From a virus (Duplodnaviria > Caudoviricetes): a stretch of 64,000 bases of DNA. The first letter of the stretch is position 1; the number at the start of each line of letters is the position of its first letter. The notes under the pieces were generated by a model. It searched no databases and was not told where the DNA came from. It saw nothing but the letters and a program-made list of their open reading frames with translations. The position numbers were made by a program, and so were the translations under genes. Location: positions 6,466 through 70,465 of IMG/VR virus record IMGVR_UViG_3300033407_000008, one strand, 5' to 3'. Positions 3,681 to 8,980 of the stretch are shown here, piece after piece.

Positions 3681-4255
3681 ACGTCGGCCTGACCCTCAAG
3701 TCGATCCGCCTCCGGAACCGCCTCTTGAACCGGAGGGCCGTCGCCCTCCTCGTCTACGTGGCGGACGATCTCTCGATCGCCAGCGGCCGACCCCTGACGG
3801 TCTCCCGCGTGCCGCTCGGGCCGCTCCAACCCGGGACCGCGCTGGTCTACGAAGGCCTCGGCCTGCTGCTCGTGCCGCCCCGAGAGGTCGGCTCCGCCAT
3901 CATCTGGCGGGTGGAGCTCTGGCAAGGCGAGGAAGCGCGGCACCAGGTCGAGCGCTGGCTCTCCGACCTCGTTTGCTCGATCACCCTGTCCGATCCGCTG
4001 GTCCGTTCGCTCGCCGCGGCTCCCCCGGATCTCCCGGGCGCCGAGCTTGCCCTGGGTAAGATCGCCGGCAGGATGGGCCACGCGCTTTCGGGTGCCGGGG
4101 ACGAGCGCCTGGAAGTCTGGCCCGGTTCGCTCCGGTGCTCCCAGGTCGAGGACCTGACCGGGAGCGTTTTCCGCCAGGTGAGCTACCACGCGGAGATCGA
4201 GCTCGGCATCCTCGTCACCGAGGGCGAGGGCCCTCAGGCAGCGGACGTCGAGTAG
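3677..4255 (+). CDS. Hypothetical protein
   Basis: ATGA-coupled 192-aa ORF; no family recognised. Confidence 0.65.
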   Translation: MNVGLTLKSIRLRNRLLNRRAVALLVYVADDLSIASGRPLTVSRVPLGPLQPGTALVYEGLGLLLVPPREVGSAIIWRVELWQGEEARHQVERWLSDLVCSITLSDPLVRSLAAAPPDLPGAELALGKIAGRMGHALSGAGDERLEVWPGSLRCSQVEDLTGSVFRQVSYHAEIELGILVTEGEGPQAADVE

Positions 4256-4326
4256 GCAGGCCCACCACTTCAACAGCCCGCGGACCACCCGCCGGAGACG
4301 CGGTCTGCTTCGTCTCCTGAGACCCC

Positions 4327-4354
4327 TTGACTCTGCCCCCGAATCAGGTACACT
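4327..4354 (+). promoter_or_regulatory. Sigma70-type promoter
   Basis: TTGACT-N16-TACACT followed by AAAC; near-identical to 8977 and 27896. Confidence 0.7.
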
Positions 4355-4410
4355 AAACCAACCGGCACCGCACAGACCGCCGGCCTGAACCAGCAAAGGA
4401 GGTCACGCAC

Positions 4411-5013
4411 ATGACCCGCAGAGAGAGGAAGGAACGGCGCGCCGAGAGCCGCCGGGAATGGGCCGAGGGCCGCGAGCAGAAGGCCGCCGCCCTCGAACGC
4501 CAGAACGAGCCCTTCCGGGGCGACTACGCCTTCAACACGCAGCCCGGGCACATCCCGGAGCGCGCCCGCGCCAACCGCCGAAGCGAGAGGGCCTTCGAGC
4601 ACCAGAAGATGGCGGCGCACCACCGGGAGCGCGCCGCGGGGATCGAAGACCAGCTCGACCGCACTGTCTTCAGCGATGACGAGGACGCCGTCGAGCGCCT
4701 GGAGGCCCGGATCGCCGAGCGGGAGGCGGAACGGGAGAAGCGGAAGGCCGCGAACGCGGCGTGGAGGAAGGCCGGGAAGCCGGGCCTCAACGGCACCGAC
4801 GAAGACCGCGCTGGCTGGGAAAAGGTCGCCGCCGCCATCGGCGCTGCGTGGGCGGCGAACGCCCGCCGGGGGCTCATGCACCAGGGGCGAAGTGATAGCG
4901 GCACCTGGGTGCCCTACTCCTGGGCCAAGCCCTTCGACCTGACGAACCTCGGAGCCAGCATCCGGCGGGATCAGAAGCGGCTCGAGGAGCTTCGCCAGGC
5001 GGCCGCGTCATGA
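4411..5013 (+). CDS. DUF3560-family protein
   Basis: FNTQPGHIPERAR, SDDEDAVERLEARIAE and LTNLGASIRRDQKRLEEL motifs; AGGAGG RBS. Confidence 0.75.
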   Translation: MTRRERKERRAESRREWAEGREQKAAALERQNEPFRGDYAFNTQPGHIPERARANRRSERAFEHQKMAAHHRERAAGIEDQLDRTVFSDDEDAVERLEARIAEREAEREKRKAANAAWRKAGKPGLNGTDEDRAGWEKVAAAIGAAWAANARRGLMHQGRSDSGTWVPYSWAKPFDLTNLGASIRRDQKRLEELRQAAAS

Positions 5014-5047
5014 TGGAGTCGGGGGTTCGGGTGCGAGAGGAGATCCG

Positions 5048-6028
5048 GTGAGCGGACAGCCCCTCAGGATTGCCCGGGACGCGCCCTTCCCGTGGTTCGG
5101 CGGCAAGCGCCGGGTCGCGCCCATCGTCTGGCGGGCGCTCGGAGACGTGCGCGGCTACGTCGAGCCCTTCGCCGGCTCGCTCGCCGTCCTGCTACAGCGC
5201 CCCGGCGAGAGCTTCGGCGTCGAGACGGTGAACGACAAGGACGCCTACGTCGCGAACTTCTTCCGGGCCTTGCAGCACGCTCCGGATGAGGTCGCCCGGT
5301 ACGCCGACTCGCCAGTGAACGAATGCGACCTCTTCGCCCGCCACCTGTGGCTCGTCAACACCGGCCGCGAACGAATCGCGGCCCTGGAGTCTGACCCGGA
5401 CCACTTCGACGCCAAGGTCGCCGGCTGGTGGGTCTGGGGTGTCTGCGCCTGGATCGGCTCGGGCTGGTGCAGCGGGAAGGGGCCGTGGCAACTCCCCCAC
5501 CTCGGCGACCCAGGCCGGGGCGTCAACCGGAAACTCCCCCACCTCGGCGACCCAGGCCGGGGTTACGTGCGCACCGAAGCGGTCTACGAATGGATGAACG
5601 GGCTCGCCGCCCGCCTTCGCCGCGTTCGCGTCTGCTGCGGTGACTGGTCGCGGGTGGTGACGCCGAGCGTGCTCCGCGGTGGCGGCTACCCTTGCGGCGT
5701 CTTCCTCGACCCGCCCTATGAGACGGGCGGGGAGAACTACTCAACCGGCGGTGAGGGGATCGCCGCGAAGGTCCGCGAGTGGGCGCTCGAGCACGGCTCC
5801 GATCGTCGGCTGAGGATCGTCCTCTGCGGCTACGACGGGGAGGGGGACATGCCAGGGGACTGGCACTGCCACGGGTACTCGGCGACCGGCGCCTACGTTG
5901 GCAAGGGAGCGACCGCCCAAGAAAACCGCCACAGGGAGCGGCTCTGGTTCTCTCCGCACTGCCTGCCGATCGACCTTCGGCACGTCGCGACCGCCGCCGG
6001 GCCGCTTTTCCAGGAGCCCAGCGCGTGA
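5048..6028 (+). CDS. Dam-like (D12 class, alpha) DNA adenine methyltransferase
   Basis: PWFGGK, YVEPFAGS (motif I), NDKD, FLDPPY (motif IV). Confidence 0.9.
   Translation: MSGQPLRIARDAPFPWFGGKRRVAPIVWRALGDVRGYVEPFAGSLAVLLQRPGESFGVETVNDKDAYVANFFRALQHAPDEVARYADSPVNECDLFARHLWLVNTGRERIAALESDPDHFDAKVAGWWVWGVCAWIGSGWCSGKGPWQLPHLGDPGRGVNRKLPHLGDPGRGYVRTEAVYEWMNGLAARLRRVRVCCGDWSRVVTPSVLRGGGYPCGVFLDPPYETGGENYSTGGEGIAAKVREWALEHGSDRRLRIVLCGYDGEGDMPGDWHCHGYSATGAYVGKGATAQENRHRERLWFSPHCLPIDLRHVATAAGPLFQEPSA
5490..5562 (+). repeat. In-frame 31-bp direct repeat, 42-bp period (LPHLGDPGRG x2)
   Basis: AACTCCCCCACCTCGGCGACCCAGGCCGGGG at 5490-5520 and 5532-5562. Confidence 0.9.
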
Positions 6029-6088: not shown

Positions 6089-6373
6089 ATGATGGTGCGA
6101 CCCAGGAAGACGACCATGACCTCGAAGCTGATCCTGTGGGTCAGCCCGGAGATGCTTGACGAGATCGACGCCTGCGCTGCCCTGGTCGAAGCTCAGACGC
6201 AGCGAGGGAAGGCCCGGCGCTGGACCCGGGCCGAATTCGTCCGGGAGGCCGTCCGCGTCGCCTGCCGGGATCTGCGGGCCGGGAAGTTCTTCCCGCGGGC
6301 CAACGCCGACCGGGAGGACGAGGTCCCGATCTACTCCGTCCACAGACCGACGAAGCCAGGAGACCGCACATGA
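6089..6373 (+). CDS. Ribbon-helix-helix-like DNA-binding protein
   Basis: LILWVSPEMLDEIDA ... TRAEFVREAV pattern; AAGGAG RBS. Confidence 0.55.
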   Translation: MMVRPRKTTMTSKLILWVSPEMLDEIDACAALVEAQTQRGKARRWTRAEFVREAVRVACRDLRAGKFFPRANADREDEVPIYSVHRPTKPGDRT

Positions 6374-6816
6374 GCCAACCATCCTCGACCACCCTCTACA
6401 CCGCCGGCTACGCCCGCGCGGGCTGGGATCCCGAGTCGCTGCTTGAGCGAGCCAAGGAGCTCGACGCCCTACTCGTCGACATTCGACTCTCGCCCAAGTC
6501 CCGCATCCCCGAGTGGCGCAAGTCCTACCTCGCCGCCCTGTGGGGCCGACGCTACTGGCACTGCCACGACCTCGGGAACGTCAACTACAAGGGCGGTCCG
6601 ATCGTGCTCCAGAACCCCGAGACGGGCGTCCGTTGCATGCTCGAGATCCTCGAGAGGCAGAGCGTCATCCTCCTCTGCGTCTGCGCCGACGTCGCCCGCT
6701 GCCATCGGGTGACGGCCGCCGCCGCGGTCGCCAACGCCTCGCCTCGTCCCCTCCAGGTGGTCCACCTCGTGCCCGAACGGGGCGAGGACCCGGATCAGCT
6801 CAGGATCGGAGGCTGA
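6370..6816 (+). CDS. DUF488-family protein
   Basis: LYTAGY, LVDIRLSP, LGN, LLCVC...CHR motifs. Confidence 0.8.
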   Translation: MSQPSSTTLYTAGYARAGWDPESLLERAKELDALLVDIRLSPKSRIPEWRKSYLAALWGRRYWHCHDLGNVNYKGGPIVLQNPETGVRCMLEILERQSVILLCVCADVARCHRVTAAAAVANASPRPLQVVHLVPERGEDPDQLRIGG

Positions 6817-6818
6817 GC

Positions 6819-7037
6819 GTGGATCTGCGAGAGCTCGAGGTGCTCGACGTCGAGGAGTTGCTACGGGTCAGCAGCACCGCCCTCTCGGTCGCCGGCCGCA
6901 AGCTCGACGCCGGGGACGGCCGCGACCGGCGGGAGGCAGTCCGGTGCCGGGCGCTGGCCGCCGAAGTGCGGTCGCTCCGGGAGCCCAGGGTGACGGTGGC
7001 CTCGCTACCGACGCTCATCGGTCTCGACGTGCCGTGA
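6819..7037 (+). CDS. Hypothetical protein
   Basis: GTG start with GGAGG RBS; GTGA overlap with MTase. Confidence 0.5.
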   Translation: MDLRELEVLDVEELLRVSSTALSVAGRKLDAGDGRDRREAVRCRALAAEVRSLREPRVTVASLPTLIGLDVP

Positions 7038-8980
7038 ACTGGCGCATCATCCAAGCCGACGCCATGGAGGGACTCCGCTCCCTGCCAGACGGGTCGGTCC
7101 ACTGCGTCGTGACCTCGCCGCCCTATTGGGGGCTCCGGGACTACGGGACCGGCGCGTGGGACGGCGGCGATCCGGCGTGCCCGCACCGGGTAGGCGGGCA
7201 AGTCGAAGACTCCAAGGCCCCCGGCGCCATCGCGTCTGGAGTGCGACCGGGAGCCGACGCTTCGACGTGTCGCGACTGTGGCGCTCGGCGAGTAGACCAA
7301 CAGCTCGGCCTCGAACGGACGCCGGAAGAGTACGTCGAGCGCATGGTCGAGGTCTTCCGGGAGGTGCGGCGAACTCTACGTTCGGACGGCATCCTGTTTC
7401 TCAATCTCGGGGATTCGTATTCTGCGAGAGAGTATGGTAGAATACATGGCGATGAGATCGACTCCTTCCTCAACCTCCCGATGGAAGTACGGCGACAACT
7501 GTTCGGCCTGTGGCGGAGATCTCTCCCAAGGTCGGTGTCGCGGGATGTGCGCGACCTGCTACCAGAGGGAGTGGAAGAAGAAGAACCCGGAACGAACCAG
7601 CGCCCACGGGAAGACGTATTACCGTCGCACGAAGACGGAGTTTTTGCGCCGGCAGGCGGAGAGGAACAAGAGACGCAGGGCCAAAATGATCGAGAAGCTC
7701 GGCGGGGTGTGCGCCTGCTGCGGCGAGACAGAGCCGATGTTTCTTTGCCTGGACCATATCAAGGGCGGTGGGCGCCGGGAATATGCGAAGAAAGGCGGGT
7801 CAGCGGGGGTTTGGAAGCGCGCGATCCGGGACGGACTAGATCGGAAGAAGTACCGGGTGCTGTGCTGGAACTGCAACGCCGCGCTTGGTCTCTATGGGAG
7901 GTGTATTCACTCGAACTTGACCTCGCCGACGTTCCACGGGAAGCACGCAGCCTATTTCACGTAACGCTCAAGCCCAAAGACCTAGTCGGCATCCCCTGGC
8001 GAGTCGCGTTCGCCCTCCAGGCGGACGGCTGGTATCTACGCAGCGACATCATCTGGGCGAAGCCCAATCCGATGCCGGAGAGCGTCCGGGACCGGCCGAC
8101 GAAGGCTCACGAGTACCTGTTCCTGCTCACGAAGTCGGAGCGCTACTACTTCGACGCCGAGGCCGTGCGGGAGGGTGACGTCGGGACCGACCACCCGCGA
8201 AACGTGCTCGACCAACCGGAGCCCTCGGGCGGCATCCTGCCGGCCCACAAGGGGATCCGGAAGGCCGCCGGCCGGAACGGCCACGGCAGGAACATCCGCT
8301 CGGTCTGGACGATTGCGACGCACCCTTTCCCGGAGGCCCACTTCGCGACCTTCCCGCCGGAGCTACCGCGGCGCTGCATTCTCGCCGGGACCTCGGAACG
8401 GGGGTGCTGTCCGGAGTGCGGGGCGCCTTGGGAGCGACTGGTCGACGTCGAGTACGACAACCCCGGCAACCGCTCGACGAACGGGCCGCGGAGCAAGGAT
8501 CGTCGGCACCTTGACCACGGGTCCGCCGGCTACGCGGTTCGCCTGGAACGTCGATCGACGTTCCACGGCTGGCGCCCGACCTGCGACCACTACGACGACC
8601 GCTACCGCACGGAGCTTCCGCGTGCCCGGCGAGCCCGGAAGCGTCACCAGCGCGCAGCTACCGGCGATTGGTGGAGGCGGGCGCGGCGCCGGCCGGGGCT
8701 CGACTCCTGGTCGGCCGTCCCTTGCACCGTCCTCGATCACTTCACCGGCTCAGGCACCACCGGCAAGGTCGCGGTCCAGCTCGGCCGGAACTTCATCGGG
8801 ATCGAGCTGTCACCCGAGTACGCCGCGATGGCCGAGCGTCGAATCGGGGAGGCGGACGTGAGCTCGGTTCTGGAGCGCGGCGGTAAGCTCAGGCCGATCG
8901 GTGGACCGCTGTTCGAGGACACGGCGGGCGAACGGCACCAGAAAGAGACCCCGAAGGAAGAAGCCTCCGTAGACCCTTGA
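7034..8980 (+). CDS. Beta-class N4C/N6A DNA methyltransferase with ~180-aa insertion and Zn-ribbon insertion
   Basis: VTSPPYWGLRDY (motif IV), NLGDSY, KPKDLVGIPWRVAFAL, IIWAKPNPMPES, HFATFP, LDHFTGSGTT (motif I), FIGIEL. Confidence 0.9.
   Translation: MNWRIIQADAMEGLRSLPDGSVHCVVTSPPYWGLRDYGTGAWDGGDPACPHRVGGQVEDSKAPGAIASGVRPGADASTCRDCGARRVDQQLGLERTPEEYVERMVEVFREVRRTLRSDGILFLNLGDSYSAREYGRIHGDEIDSFLNLPMEVRRQLFGLWRRSLPRSVSRDVRDLLPEGVEEEEPGTNQRPREDVLPSHEDGVFAPAGGEEQETQGQNDREARRGVRLLRRDRADVSLPGPYQGRWAPGICEERRVSGGLEARDPGRTRSEEVPGAVLELQRRAWSLWEVYSLELDLADVPREARSLFHVTLKPKDLVGIPWRVAFALQADGWYLRSDIIWAKPNPMPESVRDRPTKAHEYLFLLTKSERYYFDAEAVREGDVGTDHPRNVLDQPEPSGGILPAHKGIRKAAGRNGHGRNIRSVWTIATHPFPEAHFATFPPELPRRCILAGTSERGCCPECGAPWERLVDVEYDNPGNRSTNGPRSKDRRHLDHGSAGYAVRLERRSTFHGWRPTCDHYDDRYRTELPRARRARKRHQRAATGDWWRRARRRPGLDSWSAVPCTVLDHFTGSGTTGKVAVQLGRNFIGIELSPEYAAMAERRIGEADVSSVLERGGKLRPIGGPLFEDTAGERHQKETPKEEASVDP
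7434..7964 (+). CDS. HNH/EndoVII-type endonuclease nested in the +1 frame of the MTase
   Basis: CSACG...CATC Zn motif, K/R-rich helix, CACCG...LCLDHIKGGG...VLCWNCNAALG; lower GC than flanks. Confidence 0.8.
   Translation: MVEYMAMRSTPSSTSRWKYGDNCSACGGDLSQGRCRGMCATCYQREWKKKNPERTSAHGKTYYRRTKTEFLRRQAERNKRRRAKMIEKLGGVCACCGETEPMFLCLDHIKGGGRREYAKKGGSAGVWKRAIRDGLDRKKYRVLCWNCNAALGLYGRCIHSNLTSPTFHGKHAAYFT

What the first reader, a model, noticed from the sequence alone, without database searches (positions are those of the whole stretch)
7419..7964. Full HNH/EndoVII endonuclease overprinted inside a methyltransferase whose frame stays open
Seen: the MTase frame runs without a stop from NLGDSY to TLKPKDL across about 180 extra codons. 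The +1 frame over the same DNA (7434-7964) encodes a complete nuclease with Zn motifs, LDHIKGG and LCWNCN. The insert looks lower in GC than its flanks and sits between two conserved MTase blocks that are normally joined by a short loop. I see no intein (C/S...HN-C/S/T) or group I/II intron hallmarks. Knowledge: homing endonucleases usually avoid killing the host gene via introns, inteins or gene splitting. Inference: this is a splicing-free insertion in which the off-frame translation of the nuclease gene serves as a tolerated disordered loop of the MTase. Caveat: GC-rich wobble positions make this frame naturally stop-poor, which may be what permits the strategy. Both insert ends (IDSFLNLPMEVRRQL, LDLADVPREARSLF) look helix-like, as if selected in the MTase frame.
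Basis: partly seen in the sequence, partly recalled or inferred. Interest (0 to 1): 0.85.

Follow-up and report, generated by a model that had tools for sequence, protein, structure and literature searches.

The report
Hidden nuclease gene inside methylase gene
A soil phage's DNA-methylase gene contains a complete HNH homing-type nuclease gene written in a second reading frame, and the methylase frame has been kept free of stop codons so that it reads straight through. This arrangement was first described in 2025 for other phage methylases, and this is an independent further example, not a new kind of element.

Summary
A PF01555 N4/N6 DNA methyltransferase gene (7034-8980, +) carries about 540 extra bases between its NLGDSY and LKPKDL blocks. 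The +1 frame of that stretch (7434-7964) encodes an intact EndoVII-like HNH nuclease. The methylase frame has no stop over 182 codons.

This is not chance:
- With the HNH protein held fixed and synonymous codons resampled, 3-7 stops are expected, and P(no stop) is 0.033 or less in each of three diverged DNA copies.
- 24 free-standing HNH relatives carry 4-26 stops in the same frame.
- 26 further protein clusters (50% identity) read through the same insert.
- One copy has lost the nuclease core by a deletion that keeps the methylase frame.
- 158 insert-free homologues have an 11-79 residue loop at this site.
- I found no intron or intein signal.

Its caveat about GC-rich wobble positions is refuted.

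The architecture is already published: the "ShiLan domain" and Pacc40 gp60 (Arsenault, Gosselin and Gogarten 2025, PMC11855218). This element differs in nuclease subfamily, frame (+1, not +2), methylase family and insertion site. It is therefore a new member of a known kind. Nothing has been tested by experiment.

The parts
7034..8980 (+). Beta-class N4/N6 DNA methyltransferase gene (PF01555). It reads through the insert. Motif IV SPPY lies near the N-terminus and motif I F-x-G-x-G near the C-terminus.
   Evidence: The start at GTG 7034 is inferred from homologue alignment and the GTGA overlap with the upstream ORF's stop; the frame itself is open from 6944.
7421..7966 (+). Read-through loop: 182 methylase-frame codons between NLGDSY and LKPKDL with no stop. 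It replaces the 11-79 residue loop of insert-free homologues.
   Evidence: AlphaFold2: residues 133-166 and about 291-310 are structured or helical (pLDDT about 72-88), and residues 167-277 have pLDDT below 50. No Pfam family at E up to 10.
7434..7964 (+). HNH (EndoVII-like, His-Me finger) endonuclease ORF in the +1 frame, 176 aa. The likely real start is ATG 7452, which aligns one codon away from the ATG of the two closest DNA relatives. The TAA stop at 7962-7964 ends two bases before the LKPKDL block.
   Evidence: AlphaFold2 mean pLDDT 77.6. Weak fold matches, mostly to HNH domains.
7424..7443 (+). Block of nucleotides at the 5' junction that is largely shared by the three DNA copies (the stretch coding REYG-x-I in the methylase frame). 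It contains a -10-like TANAAT (TAGAAT at 7438-7443) that sits exactly 8 nt upstream of the proposed HNH ATG in all three copies. It could be an internal promoter or translation-start signal; this is inferred only.
   Evidence: Alignment. The sigma-70 consensus scan, which also demands a -35 element, did not call it.
7916..7961 (+). 3' end of the insert. The HNH tail (LTSPTFHGKH) overlaps the methylase-frame peptide DLADVPREAR. It is conserved in both frames.
   Evidence: Invariance at HNH wobble positions is 0.50 here against 0.28 in the rest of the HNH (Fisher P 0.087, not significant).

Best explanation
A homing-type HNH endonuclease gene has colonised the variable surface-loop region of a phage DNA methyltransferase gene and lies in the +1 frame. 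I found nothing that would splice it out, as RNA or as protein. Ribosomes that start at the methylase start codon read through the nuclease gene in the wrong frame. The result is a methylase with a 180-residue, largely disordered loop between two core blocks. Selection has removed every stop codon from that frame while the nuclease frame keeps its amino-acid sequence. The nuclease is made separately by internal initiation, possibly from a short-leader or leaderless transcript driven by a conserved -10-like TANAAT at the 5' junction. It is presumed to cut insert-free alleles at or near the NLGDSY/LKPKDL-coding site, so that repair copies the element in.

Shown: the anatomy, the two-frame selection pattern, stop-codon avoidance, recurrence in many diverged methylases, and an in-frame decayed copy. 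Inferred: absence of splicing, translation of both products, methylase activity with the loop, and homing.
For: - Anatomy.
- The insert is the exception: 158 homologue loci lack it.
- Stop avoidance: 3-7 stops are expected and 0 observed in each of three copies whose HNH wobble sites differ at 41-54%. The two extra DNA loci were retrieved with a pattern covering only the last 21 codons, so they were not selected for openness.
- Natural control: 24 free-standing relatives have 4-26 stops in the equivalent frame.
- Codon-position invariance switches at the borders. In the flanks the methylase third position is the most variable (3' flank 0.92/0.92/0.44); inside the insert the HNH third position is (0.28 against 0.66/0.68). 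So the HNH is under purifying selection, and so are the methylase parts on both sides in insert-bearing alleles.
- A profile of the read-through peptide finds 26 representatives (50% clusters). At least 18 of them carry the SPPY motif and/or both junction motifs, and the loops measure 176-219 residues where measurable.
- P0018 keeps both insert ends but has an in-frame internal deletion, about residues 178-241 of the window protein. In HNH numbering that removes the CxCC and DH motifs. This is the pattern expected if only the host frame must survive.
- No intron family in Rfam at E up to 10 (window) or 1 (L038, L039). No Pfam or PDB-sequence match for the read-through peptide.
- Only 13-31 nt lie 5' of the HNH start and 2 nt 3' of its stop, which leaves no room for a ribozyme core outside the ORF.
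- Published precedent for the same architecture: PMC11855218.
Against: - No expression data of any kind. No RNA run holds the sequence, so splicing, bypass or lack of translation cannot be excluded directly.
- Most of the 26 additional read-through cases are known only as called proteins, and calling an ORF favours open frames. One hit (P0173, 209 aa) ends inside the loop; that could be a stop or a contig end.
- Homing is not shown. In the three DNA copies the insert has diverged about as much as its host gene (HNH 61-79% identity against flanks 46-82%), which looks like long residence rather than recent spread.
Confidence: 0.72

Rival explanations
1. The insert is removed after all, by an unrecognised ribozyme embedded in the nuclease ORF, by a non-canonical intein, or by ribosomal bypass. 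On this view the mature methylase lacks the loop.
For: Homing endonucleases normally ride on introns or inteins. Out-of-frame EndoVII-like nucleases inside true inteins of actinophages have been reported (bioRxiv 10.1101/2025.01.02.630785). Both insert ends are conserved. No RNA or protein data exist.
Against: RNA splicing or bypass would remove any need for an open frame, yet stops are purged in every copy. No Rfam hit. The read-through peptide has no Hint or intein match. It has no conserved terminal Asn, and the residue after the insert is Leu, Ile or Val, not Cys, Ser or Thr. AlphaFold2 gives helices plus disorder, not a beta-rich Hint fold. The methylase-frame peptide is only 40% conserved where the HNH is 61%.
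Confidence: 0.1
2. The open methylase frame is an accident of composition or of a recent insertion, and the interrupted methylase is a dead gene.
For: High-GC DNA has long open frames. One antisense frame of the window's insert has only two stops.
Against: P(no stop) is 0.033 or less in each of three copies with near-saturated wobble divergence. L039's insert has only 53% GC and is still open, whereas free-standing relatives with 50-55% GC have 4-17 stops. The flanks show the pattern of purifying selection. 26 more diverged read-through forms exist.
Confidence: 0.04
3. The element no longer homes. The nuclease has been kept for a job that serves the phage, for example cutting unmethylated competitor or host DNA while the surrounding methylase protects the phage's own DNA. 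That would be a nested restriction-modification-like pair.
For: Insert and host gene have co-diverged in the three DNA copies. The nuclease is under purifying selection long after insertion. The nuclease and the methylase are physically inseparable. Phage HNH genes often sit beside methylase genes, as with PopTart gp59/gp60 and Pacc40 gp59/gp60.
Against: Across 302 pairs of insert-bearing methylases, loop identity correlates only weakly with flank identity (r 0.20). That fits movement between diverged hosts better than strict co-inheritance. A decayed copy exists (P0018), as expected in a selfish-element life cycle. No target-site information is available.
Confidence: 0.12

Closest known systems
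ShiLan domain: hidden out-of-frame HNH insertion in mycobacteriophage DNA methylase gp65 (Arsenault, Gosselin, Gogarten, Genes 2025, PMC11855218; earlier PMC9957025)
   Same: An HNH gene lies inside a phage PF01555-type methylase gene in a different frame. The host frame has no internal stop. No intron or intein features are detectable. The read-through peptide is predicted to be a loop. The nuclease stop codon sits at the very end of the insert. Translation is proposed to be leaderless or internal. Neither case has been tested by experiment.
   Different: I checked this on Filuzino, Bipolar and Mantra. The ShiLan nuclease is in the +2 frame and is of the HVHH-x-NG...DNR type. It has no significant similarity to this one (blastp E 0.33). 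Its host methylase (PopTart gp63 family) matches ours only at motifs IV and I (E 5e-5). Its site corresponds to about residue 225 of PopTart gp63, well downstream of the position equivalent to ours (about residue 120). ShiLan domains are much less diverged than their hosts, which suggests active homing; ours is about as diverged as its host.
Pacc40 gp60 methylase insertion with a hidden 160-aa HNH-like ORF (same paper, section 3.6)
   Same: A second, non-homologous out-of-frame nuclease insertion in a phage methylase with the host frame open. It has free-standing relatives in Arthrobacter phages.
   Different: Pacc40 gp60 shows no blastp match to our methylase at E 1e-3 or better. Its +2-frame 159-aa ORF is not similar to our HNH.
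[quoted passage not shown]
   Same: An EndoVII-like or other homing nuclease is overprinted on a host-frame sequence that must stay open. Selection depends on the frame: the nuclease frame is conserved and the host frame is relaxed.
   Different: In those cases the host-frame sequence is part of a true intein that splices itself out. Here no splicing domain exists, so the read-through peptide should stay in the mature enzyme.
Genes split by free-standing homing endonuclease genes (for example Aeromonas phage Aeh1 nrdA split by mobE) and the T4 gene 60 bypass element. The first is recalled from my own knowledge and not checked here. The second was seen only as a title and abstract, bioRxiv 10.1101/2022.08.31.505936.
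   Same: These are alternative ways for a homing nuclease to sit inside a conserved phage gene without an intron or intein.
   Different: Those solutions break the host ORF into two polypeptides or make the ribosome skip. Here the host ORF stays continuous and is simply translated through.

Membership tests
Out-of-frame 'hidden' HNH insertion elements in phage DNA methylase genes (architectural class of PMC11855218) | Extra segment inside a conserved part of a methylase gene, absent from homologues | tested here: met
   Loop of 182 residues against 11-79 in 158 homologue loci
Out-of-frame 'hidden' HNH insertion elements in phage DNA methylase genes (architectural class of PMC11855218) | Host frame has no stop codon through the insert | tested here: met
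   0 stops in three DNA copies, significant against synonymous-codon nulls and against free-standing relatives. 26 read-through representatives.
Out-of-frame 'hidden' HNH insertion elements in phage DNA methylase genes (architectural class of PMC11855218) | A different frame of the insert encodes an HNH endonuclease | tested here: met
   PHROG HNH/EndoVII E 1e-9; tblastn to annotated phage HNH genes; invariant CxCC, DH and CxNC motifs kept
Out-of-frame 'hidden' HNH insertion elements in phage DNA methylase genes (architectural class of PMC11855218) | No detectable intron or intein machinery | tested here: met
   Rfam: none. Pfam on the read-through peptide: none at E up to 10. Junction residues are incompatible with intein chemistry. 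This is computational evidence only.
Out-of-frame 'hidden' HNH insertion elements in phage DNA methylase genes (architectural class of PMC11855218) | Disjunct distribution showing homing between diverged methylases | tested here: inconclusive
   Weak correlation between loop and flank identity (r 0.20, 302 pairs) suggests movement. The three DNA copies show co-divergence.
ShiLan domain sequence family proper | Homology of the nuclease to the ShiLan hidden HNH, with the same frame and insertion site | tested here: not met
   blastp E 0.33; +1 frame rather than +2; different site; distantly related methylase family
HNH / His-Me finger endonucleases, endonuclease VII-like branch | Catalytic D-H on the beta hairpin, Asn on the helix, and two CxxC zinc-binding pairs | tested here: met
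   C93-x-C95-C96, D107-H108 and C144-x-N146-C147-N148 are invariant or nearly so across 16 and 30 relatives
HNH / His-Me finger endonucleases, endonuclease VII-like branch | Significant match to a curated model or a solved fold | tested here: inconclusive
Beta-class N4/N6 DNA methyltransferase (PF01555) | Pfam match above threshold, with motif IV (S/D)PPY before motif I FxGxG | tested here: met
   145 bits against a 26.7-bit cut-off. S27-P28-P29 and F569/G571 are invariant and Y30 nearly so in 46 homologues. The methylated base and the target sequence were not tested.
Intein | Hint fold with an N-terminal Cys/Ser/Ala, a C-terminal His-Asn, and Cys/Ser/Thr at +1 | tested here: not met
   No Pfam hit. 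No conserved terminal Asn, and the +1 residue is Leu, Ile or Val in 27 sequences. The model shows helices and disorder.
Group I / group II intron | Ribozyme core detectable by covariance model, with room for it outside or around the ORF | tested here: not met
   No Rfam intron family at permissive thresholds in three loci. Only 13-31 nt lie 5' and 2 nt 3' of the ORF. Splicing itself cannot be tested with these tools.

The most novel reading that the evidence does not exclude
The nested pair is a functional unit and not just parasite and host. On this reading the nuclease attacks DNA that lacks the methylation made by the gene that contains it (competing phages, or empty alleles). The conserved helical ends of the read-through loop have been recruited as a working part of the methylase. 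That would make it a one-locus, two-frame restriction-modification-like weapon, kept in many phage lineages.
Probability: 0.1. Interest if true: 0.8.

Novelty: new member of a known kind. Interest (0 to 1): 0.5.

Why it matters
Homing endonucleases are usually thought to need an intron, an intein or a gene split to live inside a conserved gene. This locus is an independent, non-homologous instance of a fourth route that was proposed only in 2025: sit out of frame and let the host protein read through.

The analysis here adds three things to the published cases:
- A statistical demonstration that stop codons are purged from the host frame.
- A natural control from free-standing relatives.
- Evidence that the arrangement recurs in at least 26 diverged methylase clusters, and that it decays by deletions that keep the host frame.

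It also gives a compact system of about 2 kb for testing whether both frames are translated, and whether a methylase tolerates a 180-residue nonsense loop. For annotation, long "disordered inserts" in phage enzymes should be translated in other frames before they are called domains.

Tried and rejected
I could not fetch DNA for P0001, P0009 or P0018, or for the 26 close HNH relatives. Their contexts and host-frame status are therefore unknown.
- Degenerate junction and HNH-core patterns found nothing else in the viral contig collection.
- The genome-collection scan with P0018 returned only insert-free methylases and not P0018's own locus.
- No RNA holder listed for the stretch. The only full holder is a soil metagenome that may be the source sample, so I did not lay reads.
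- HNH relatives in IMG/VR at 31-46% identity (L001-L036) are not flanked by this methylase.
- The sigma-70 consensus scan did not call a promoter at the 5' junction. The TANAAT idea rests only on conservation and spacing.
- A weak Rfam hit to a Neisseria frameshift element at 7308-7390 (17.8 bits against a gathering score of 50, E 1.6) is treated as chance.
- A terminator-like hairpin at 7622-7638 is within the number expected by chance.
- The test for extra constraint on the 3' tail in the methylase frame was not significant (P 0.087).
- Back-translating the 26 read-through proteins shows that their +1 frame is far more compatible with this HNH than shuffled controls (z 9-51). Because they were found by similarity in the methylase frame, this is not independent proof that their nucleases are intact.
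- Fold searches of the HNH model gave only weak matches.
Full report
WHAT IS THERE

The window is part of a 70,465-base IMG/VR virus record, estimated about 90% complete. The only full holder among sequencing runs is a soil metagenome.

Between 6944 and 8980 one + strand frame is open. Homologue alignment puts the methyltransferase start at GTG 7034, which overlaps the TGA of a small upstream ORF. The product matches PF01555 (N6_N4_Mtase) at 145 bits and PHROG 67 at E 1e-69. It has SPPY near the N-terminus and F-x-G-x-G near the C-terminus, the order typical of beta-class enzymes.

Between the blocks NLGDSY and LKPKDL lie 182 codons (7421-7966) that have no counterpart in most homologues. The +1 frame of the same DNA holds an ORF at 7434-7964. 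It matches PHROG HNH/endonuclease VII families (E 1e-9 to 7e-7) and annotated HNH genes of Arthrobacter, Streptomyces and Synechococcus phages and a Salmonella phage ORF annotated as hypothetical. It retains every invariant residue of its family: CxCC-G-E, F-L, D-H and C-x-N-C.

GC drops by about ten points across the insert. The neighbouring genes are a D12-class adenine methylase (5048-6028) and a DUF488 protein (6370-6816).

IS THE OPEN METHYLASE FRAME CHANCE?

No, on four independent grounds.

1. Synonymous-codon nulls. I held the HNH protein fixed and resampled synonymous codons. The methylase frame then carries 3-7 stops on average. It is stop-free in 0.6-3.3% of trials for the window, 0.4-0.5% for L038 and 0-0.07% for L039.

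2. Unbiased extra copies. L038 and L039 are metagenome contigs found with a degenerate pattern that covers only the last 21 codons of the insert plus LKPKD. They were therefore not chosen for being open. Their HNH wobble positions differ from the window's at 54% of sites, so the three copies are close to independent trials at synonymous sites. All three have 0 stops in the methylase frame, 5-10 in the third sense frame and 1-7 in each antisense frame.

3. Natural control. 24 free-standing relatives of the nuclease (GC 39-55%) have 4-26 stops in the equivalent frame, 6.8 per 100 codons. That is nearly twice the rate in the other alternative frame. L039's insert has only 53% GC and is still open.

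4. Recurrence. A profile of the read-through peptide, searched against 1.84 billion representatives, finds 26 proteins at E 0.001 or better and 20 at 1e-10 or better. At least 18 of them carry SPPY and/or both junction motifs, and the loops measure 176-219 residues where measurable. This set is biased towards open frames because only called ORFs are searched. Even so, fragments of 70 residues are detectable, and only one hit (P0173) ends inside the loop.

WHICH FRAME IS UNDER SELECTION?

Between the window and L038 or L039, HNH identity is 61%. The read-through peptide is 40% identical, and the methylase flanks 46-66%. Nucleotide differences fall at HNH codon positions 1, 2 and 3 in the proportions 0.29/0.26/0.54.

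Mapped along the alignment, the pattern flips at the insert borders:
- In the flanks the methylase third position is the most variable (invariant fractions in the 3' flank 0.92/0.92/0.44).
- Inside the insert the HNH third position is the most variable (0.28 against 0.66/0.68).

So the nuclease is kept as a protein. The read-through peptide is mostly free to change as long as it contains no stop. The methylase core on both sides remains under purifying selection in alleles that carry the insert. That last point argues that the interrupted gene still works.

DECAY BY A FRAME-KEEPING DELETION

P0018 (567 aa) keeps both ends of the insert at 68% identity. It lacks about residues 178-241 of the window protein. 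In the nuclease frame this removes the zinc-binding and D-H motifs. The methylase frame continues through the deletion. This is what the life cycle of a selfish nuclease predicts if the host frame must stay translatable.

IS IT SPLICED?

Nothing suggests so.
- Rfam finds no intron family at permissive thresholds in the window or in L038 and L039.
- Only 13-31 nt precede the nuclease start, and 2 nt follow its stop within the insert.
- The read-through peptide has no Pfam family at E up to 10 and no meaningful PDB sequence match.
- In 27 aligned sequences it lacks a terminal Asn, and it is followed by Leu, Ile or Val rather than Cys, Ser or Thr.
- AlphaFold2 models a confident methylase core. 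Residues 133-166 and about 291-310 of the insert are modelled as structured or helical (pLDDT about 72-88), and residues 167-277 are disordered (below 50).

More generally, an element removed at the RNA level would not need an open host frame.

HOW THE NUCLEASE MIGHT BE EXPRESSED (INFERENCE)

The three DNA copies share much of a block at the 5' junction. It reads REYG-x-I in the methylase frame and contains TAGAAT, TATAAT or TAAAAT exactly 8 nt before the aligned nuclease ATG, which is 7452 in the window. This could be an internal -10 element giving a short-leader or leaderless mRNA, as the 2025 paper speculated for its cases. The consensus promoter scan, which also requires a -35 element, does not call it.

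IS IT HOMING?

Unresolved. The nuclease belongs to a clade of at least 26 clusters (46-81% identity) in metagenomes. One of them (P0139) ends with the +1-frame shadow of LKPKDL, so it is embedded at the same site. Across 302 pairs of insert-bearing methylases, loop identity correlates only weakly with flank identity (r 0.20), which hints at movement between diverged hosts. In the three DNA copies, however, insert and host have diverged in step.

COMPARISON WITH WHAT IS KNOWN

A literature search found Arsenault, Gosselin and Gogarten 2025 (PMC11855218). That paper describes the ShiLan domain of mycobacteriophage methylase gp65 as an out-of-frame hidden HNH with no stop in the host frame and no intron or intein features. 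It also describes a second, unrelated case in Pacc40 gp60. The earlier paper PMC9957025 documents the domain's patchy distribution.

I retrieved three ShiLan-type genes and Pacc40 gp60. Their nucleases lie in the +2 frame and belong to another HNH branch. They are not similar to this one (E 0.33 or worse). Their methylases match ours only at motifs IV and I, or not at all. The ShiLan insertion site is a different one.

Related preprints report out-of-frame EndoVII-like nucleases inside true inteins.

The present element is therefore an independent new member of a recently described kind, not a new kind. What this analysis adds is the quantitative evidence for stop purging, the frame-switch in selection, the breadth of occurrence and the decayed copy.

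VERDICT

- Observation: confirmed.
- Interpretation: supported at the sequence level and unproven at the bench.
- Novelty: new member of a known kind.
- Interest: moderate.

Noticed in passing
P0001 (closest homologue, 81% identity in its best local alignment, which covers 19% of the query); no DNA held: It lacks this insert. It has a different low-complexity insertion of about 190 residues after SVWTIATTPFKD, at another conserved site. This may be another out-of-frame element read through by the methylase.
   Followed up: partly
P0005 (homologue, 770 aa): It carries what looks like a canonical intein between IIW and SKPNPMPES: it starts with Cys and ends in His-Asn followed by Ser. This methylase family therefore hosts at least three kinds of invader at three sites.
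   Followed up: no
P0018 (homologue, 567 aa): Besides the decayed HNH insert, it has an extra segment of about 33 residues inside the AKP/NPMPES block.
   Followed up: no
window 6819-7037: A small ORF (about 72 aa, GTG start just after the DUF488 stop) ends in TGA overlapping the methylase GTG (GTGA). This suggests translational coupling of a DUF488, small-ORF and methylase operon.
   Followed up: partly
window 5048-6028: A second DNA methyltransferase of the D12 adenine class lies 1 kb upstream. It contains a tandem duplication of a peptide of about 14 residues (LPHLGDPGRG...), so the phage carries at least two methylases.
   Followed up: no
window 7545-7964 (protein P0121): A 139-aa product of the window's own contig, identical to the C-terminal 79% of the HNH ORF (consistent with a start at the internal Met of MCATCY), is already in the protein collection. 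So the nuclease frame was called as a gene in the source record, even though it lies inside the methylase ORF.
   Followed up: no
L116 (CANOYV010000083.1), locus 4243-5419: The N-terminal methylase block occurs twice, about 1.1 kb apart, before a single C-terminal block. This could be another insertion or a tandem duplication.
   Followed up: no
L120 and L205 (mycobacteriophages PopTart and Pacc40): A free-standing annotated HNH gene (gp59) sits directly upstream of a methylase gene (gp60), with overlapping stop and start, in both phages. Nuclease-methylase adjacency recurs.
   Followed up: no
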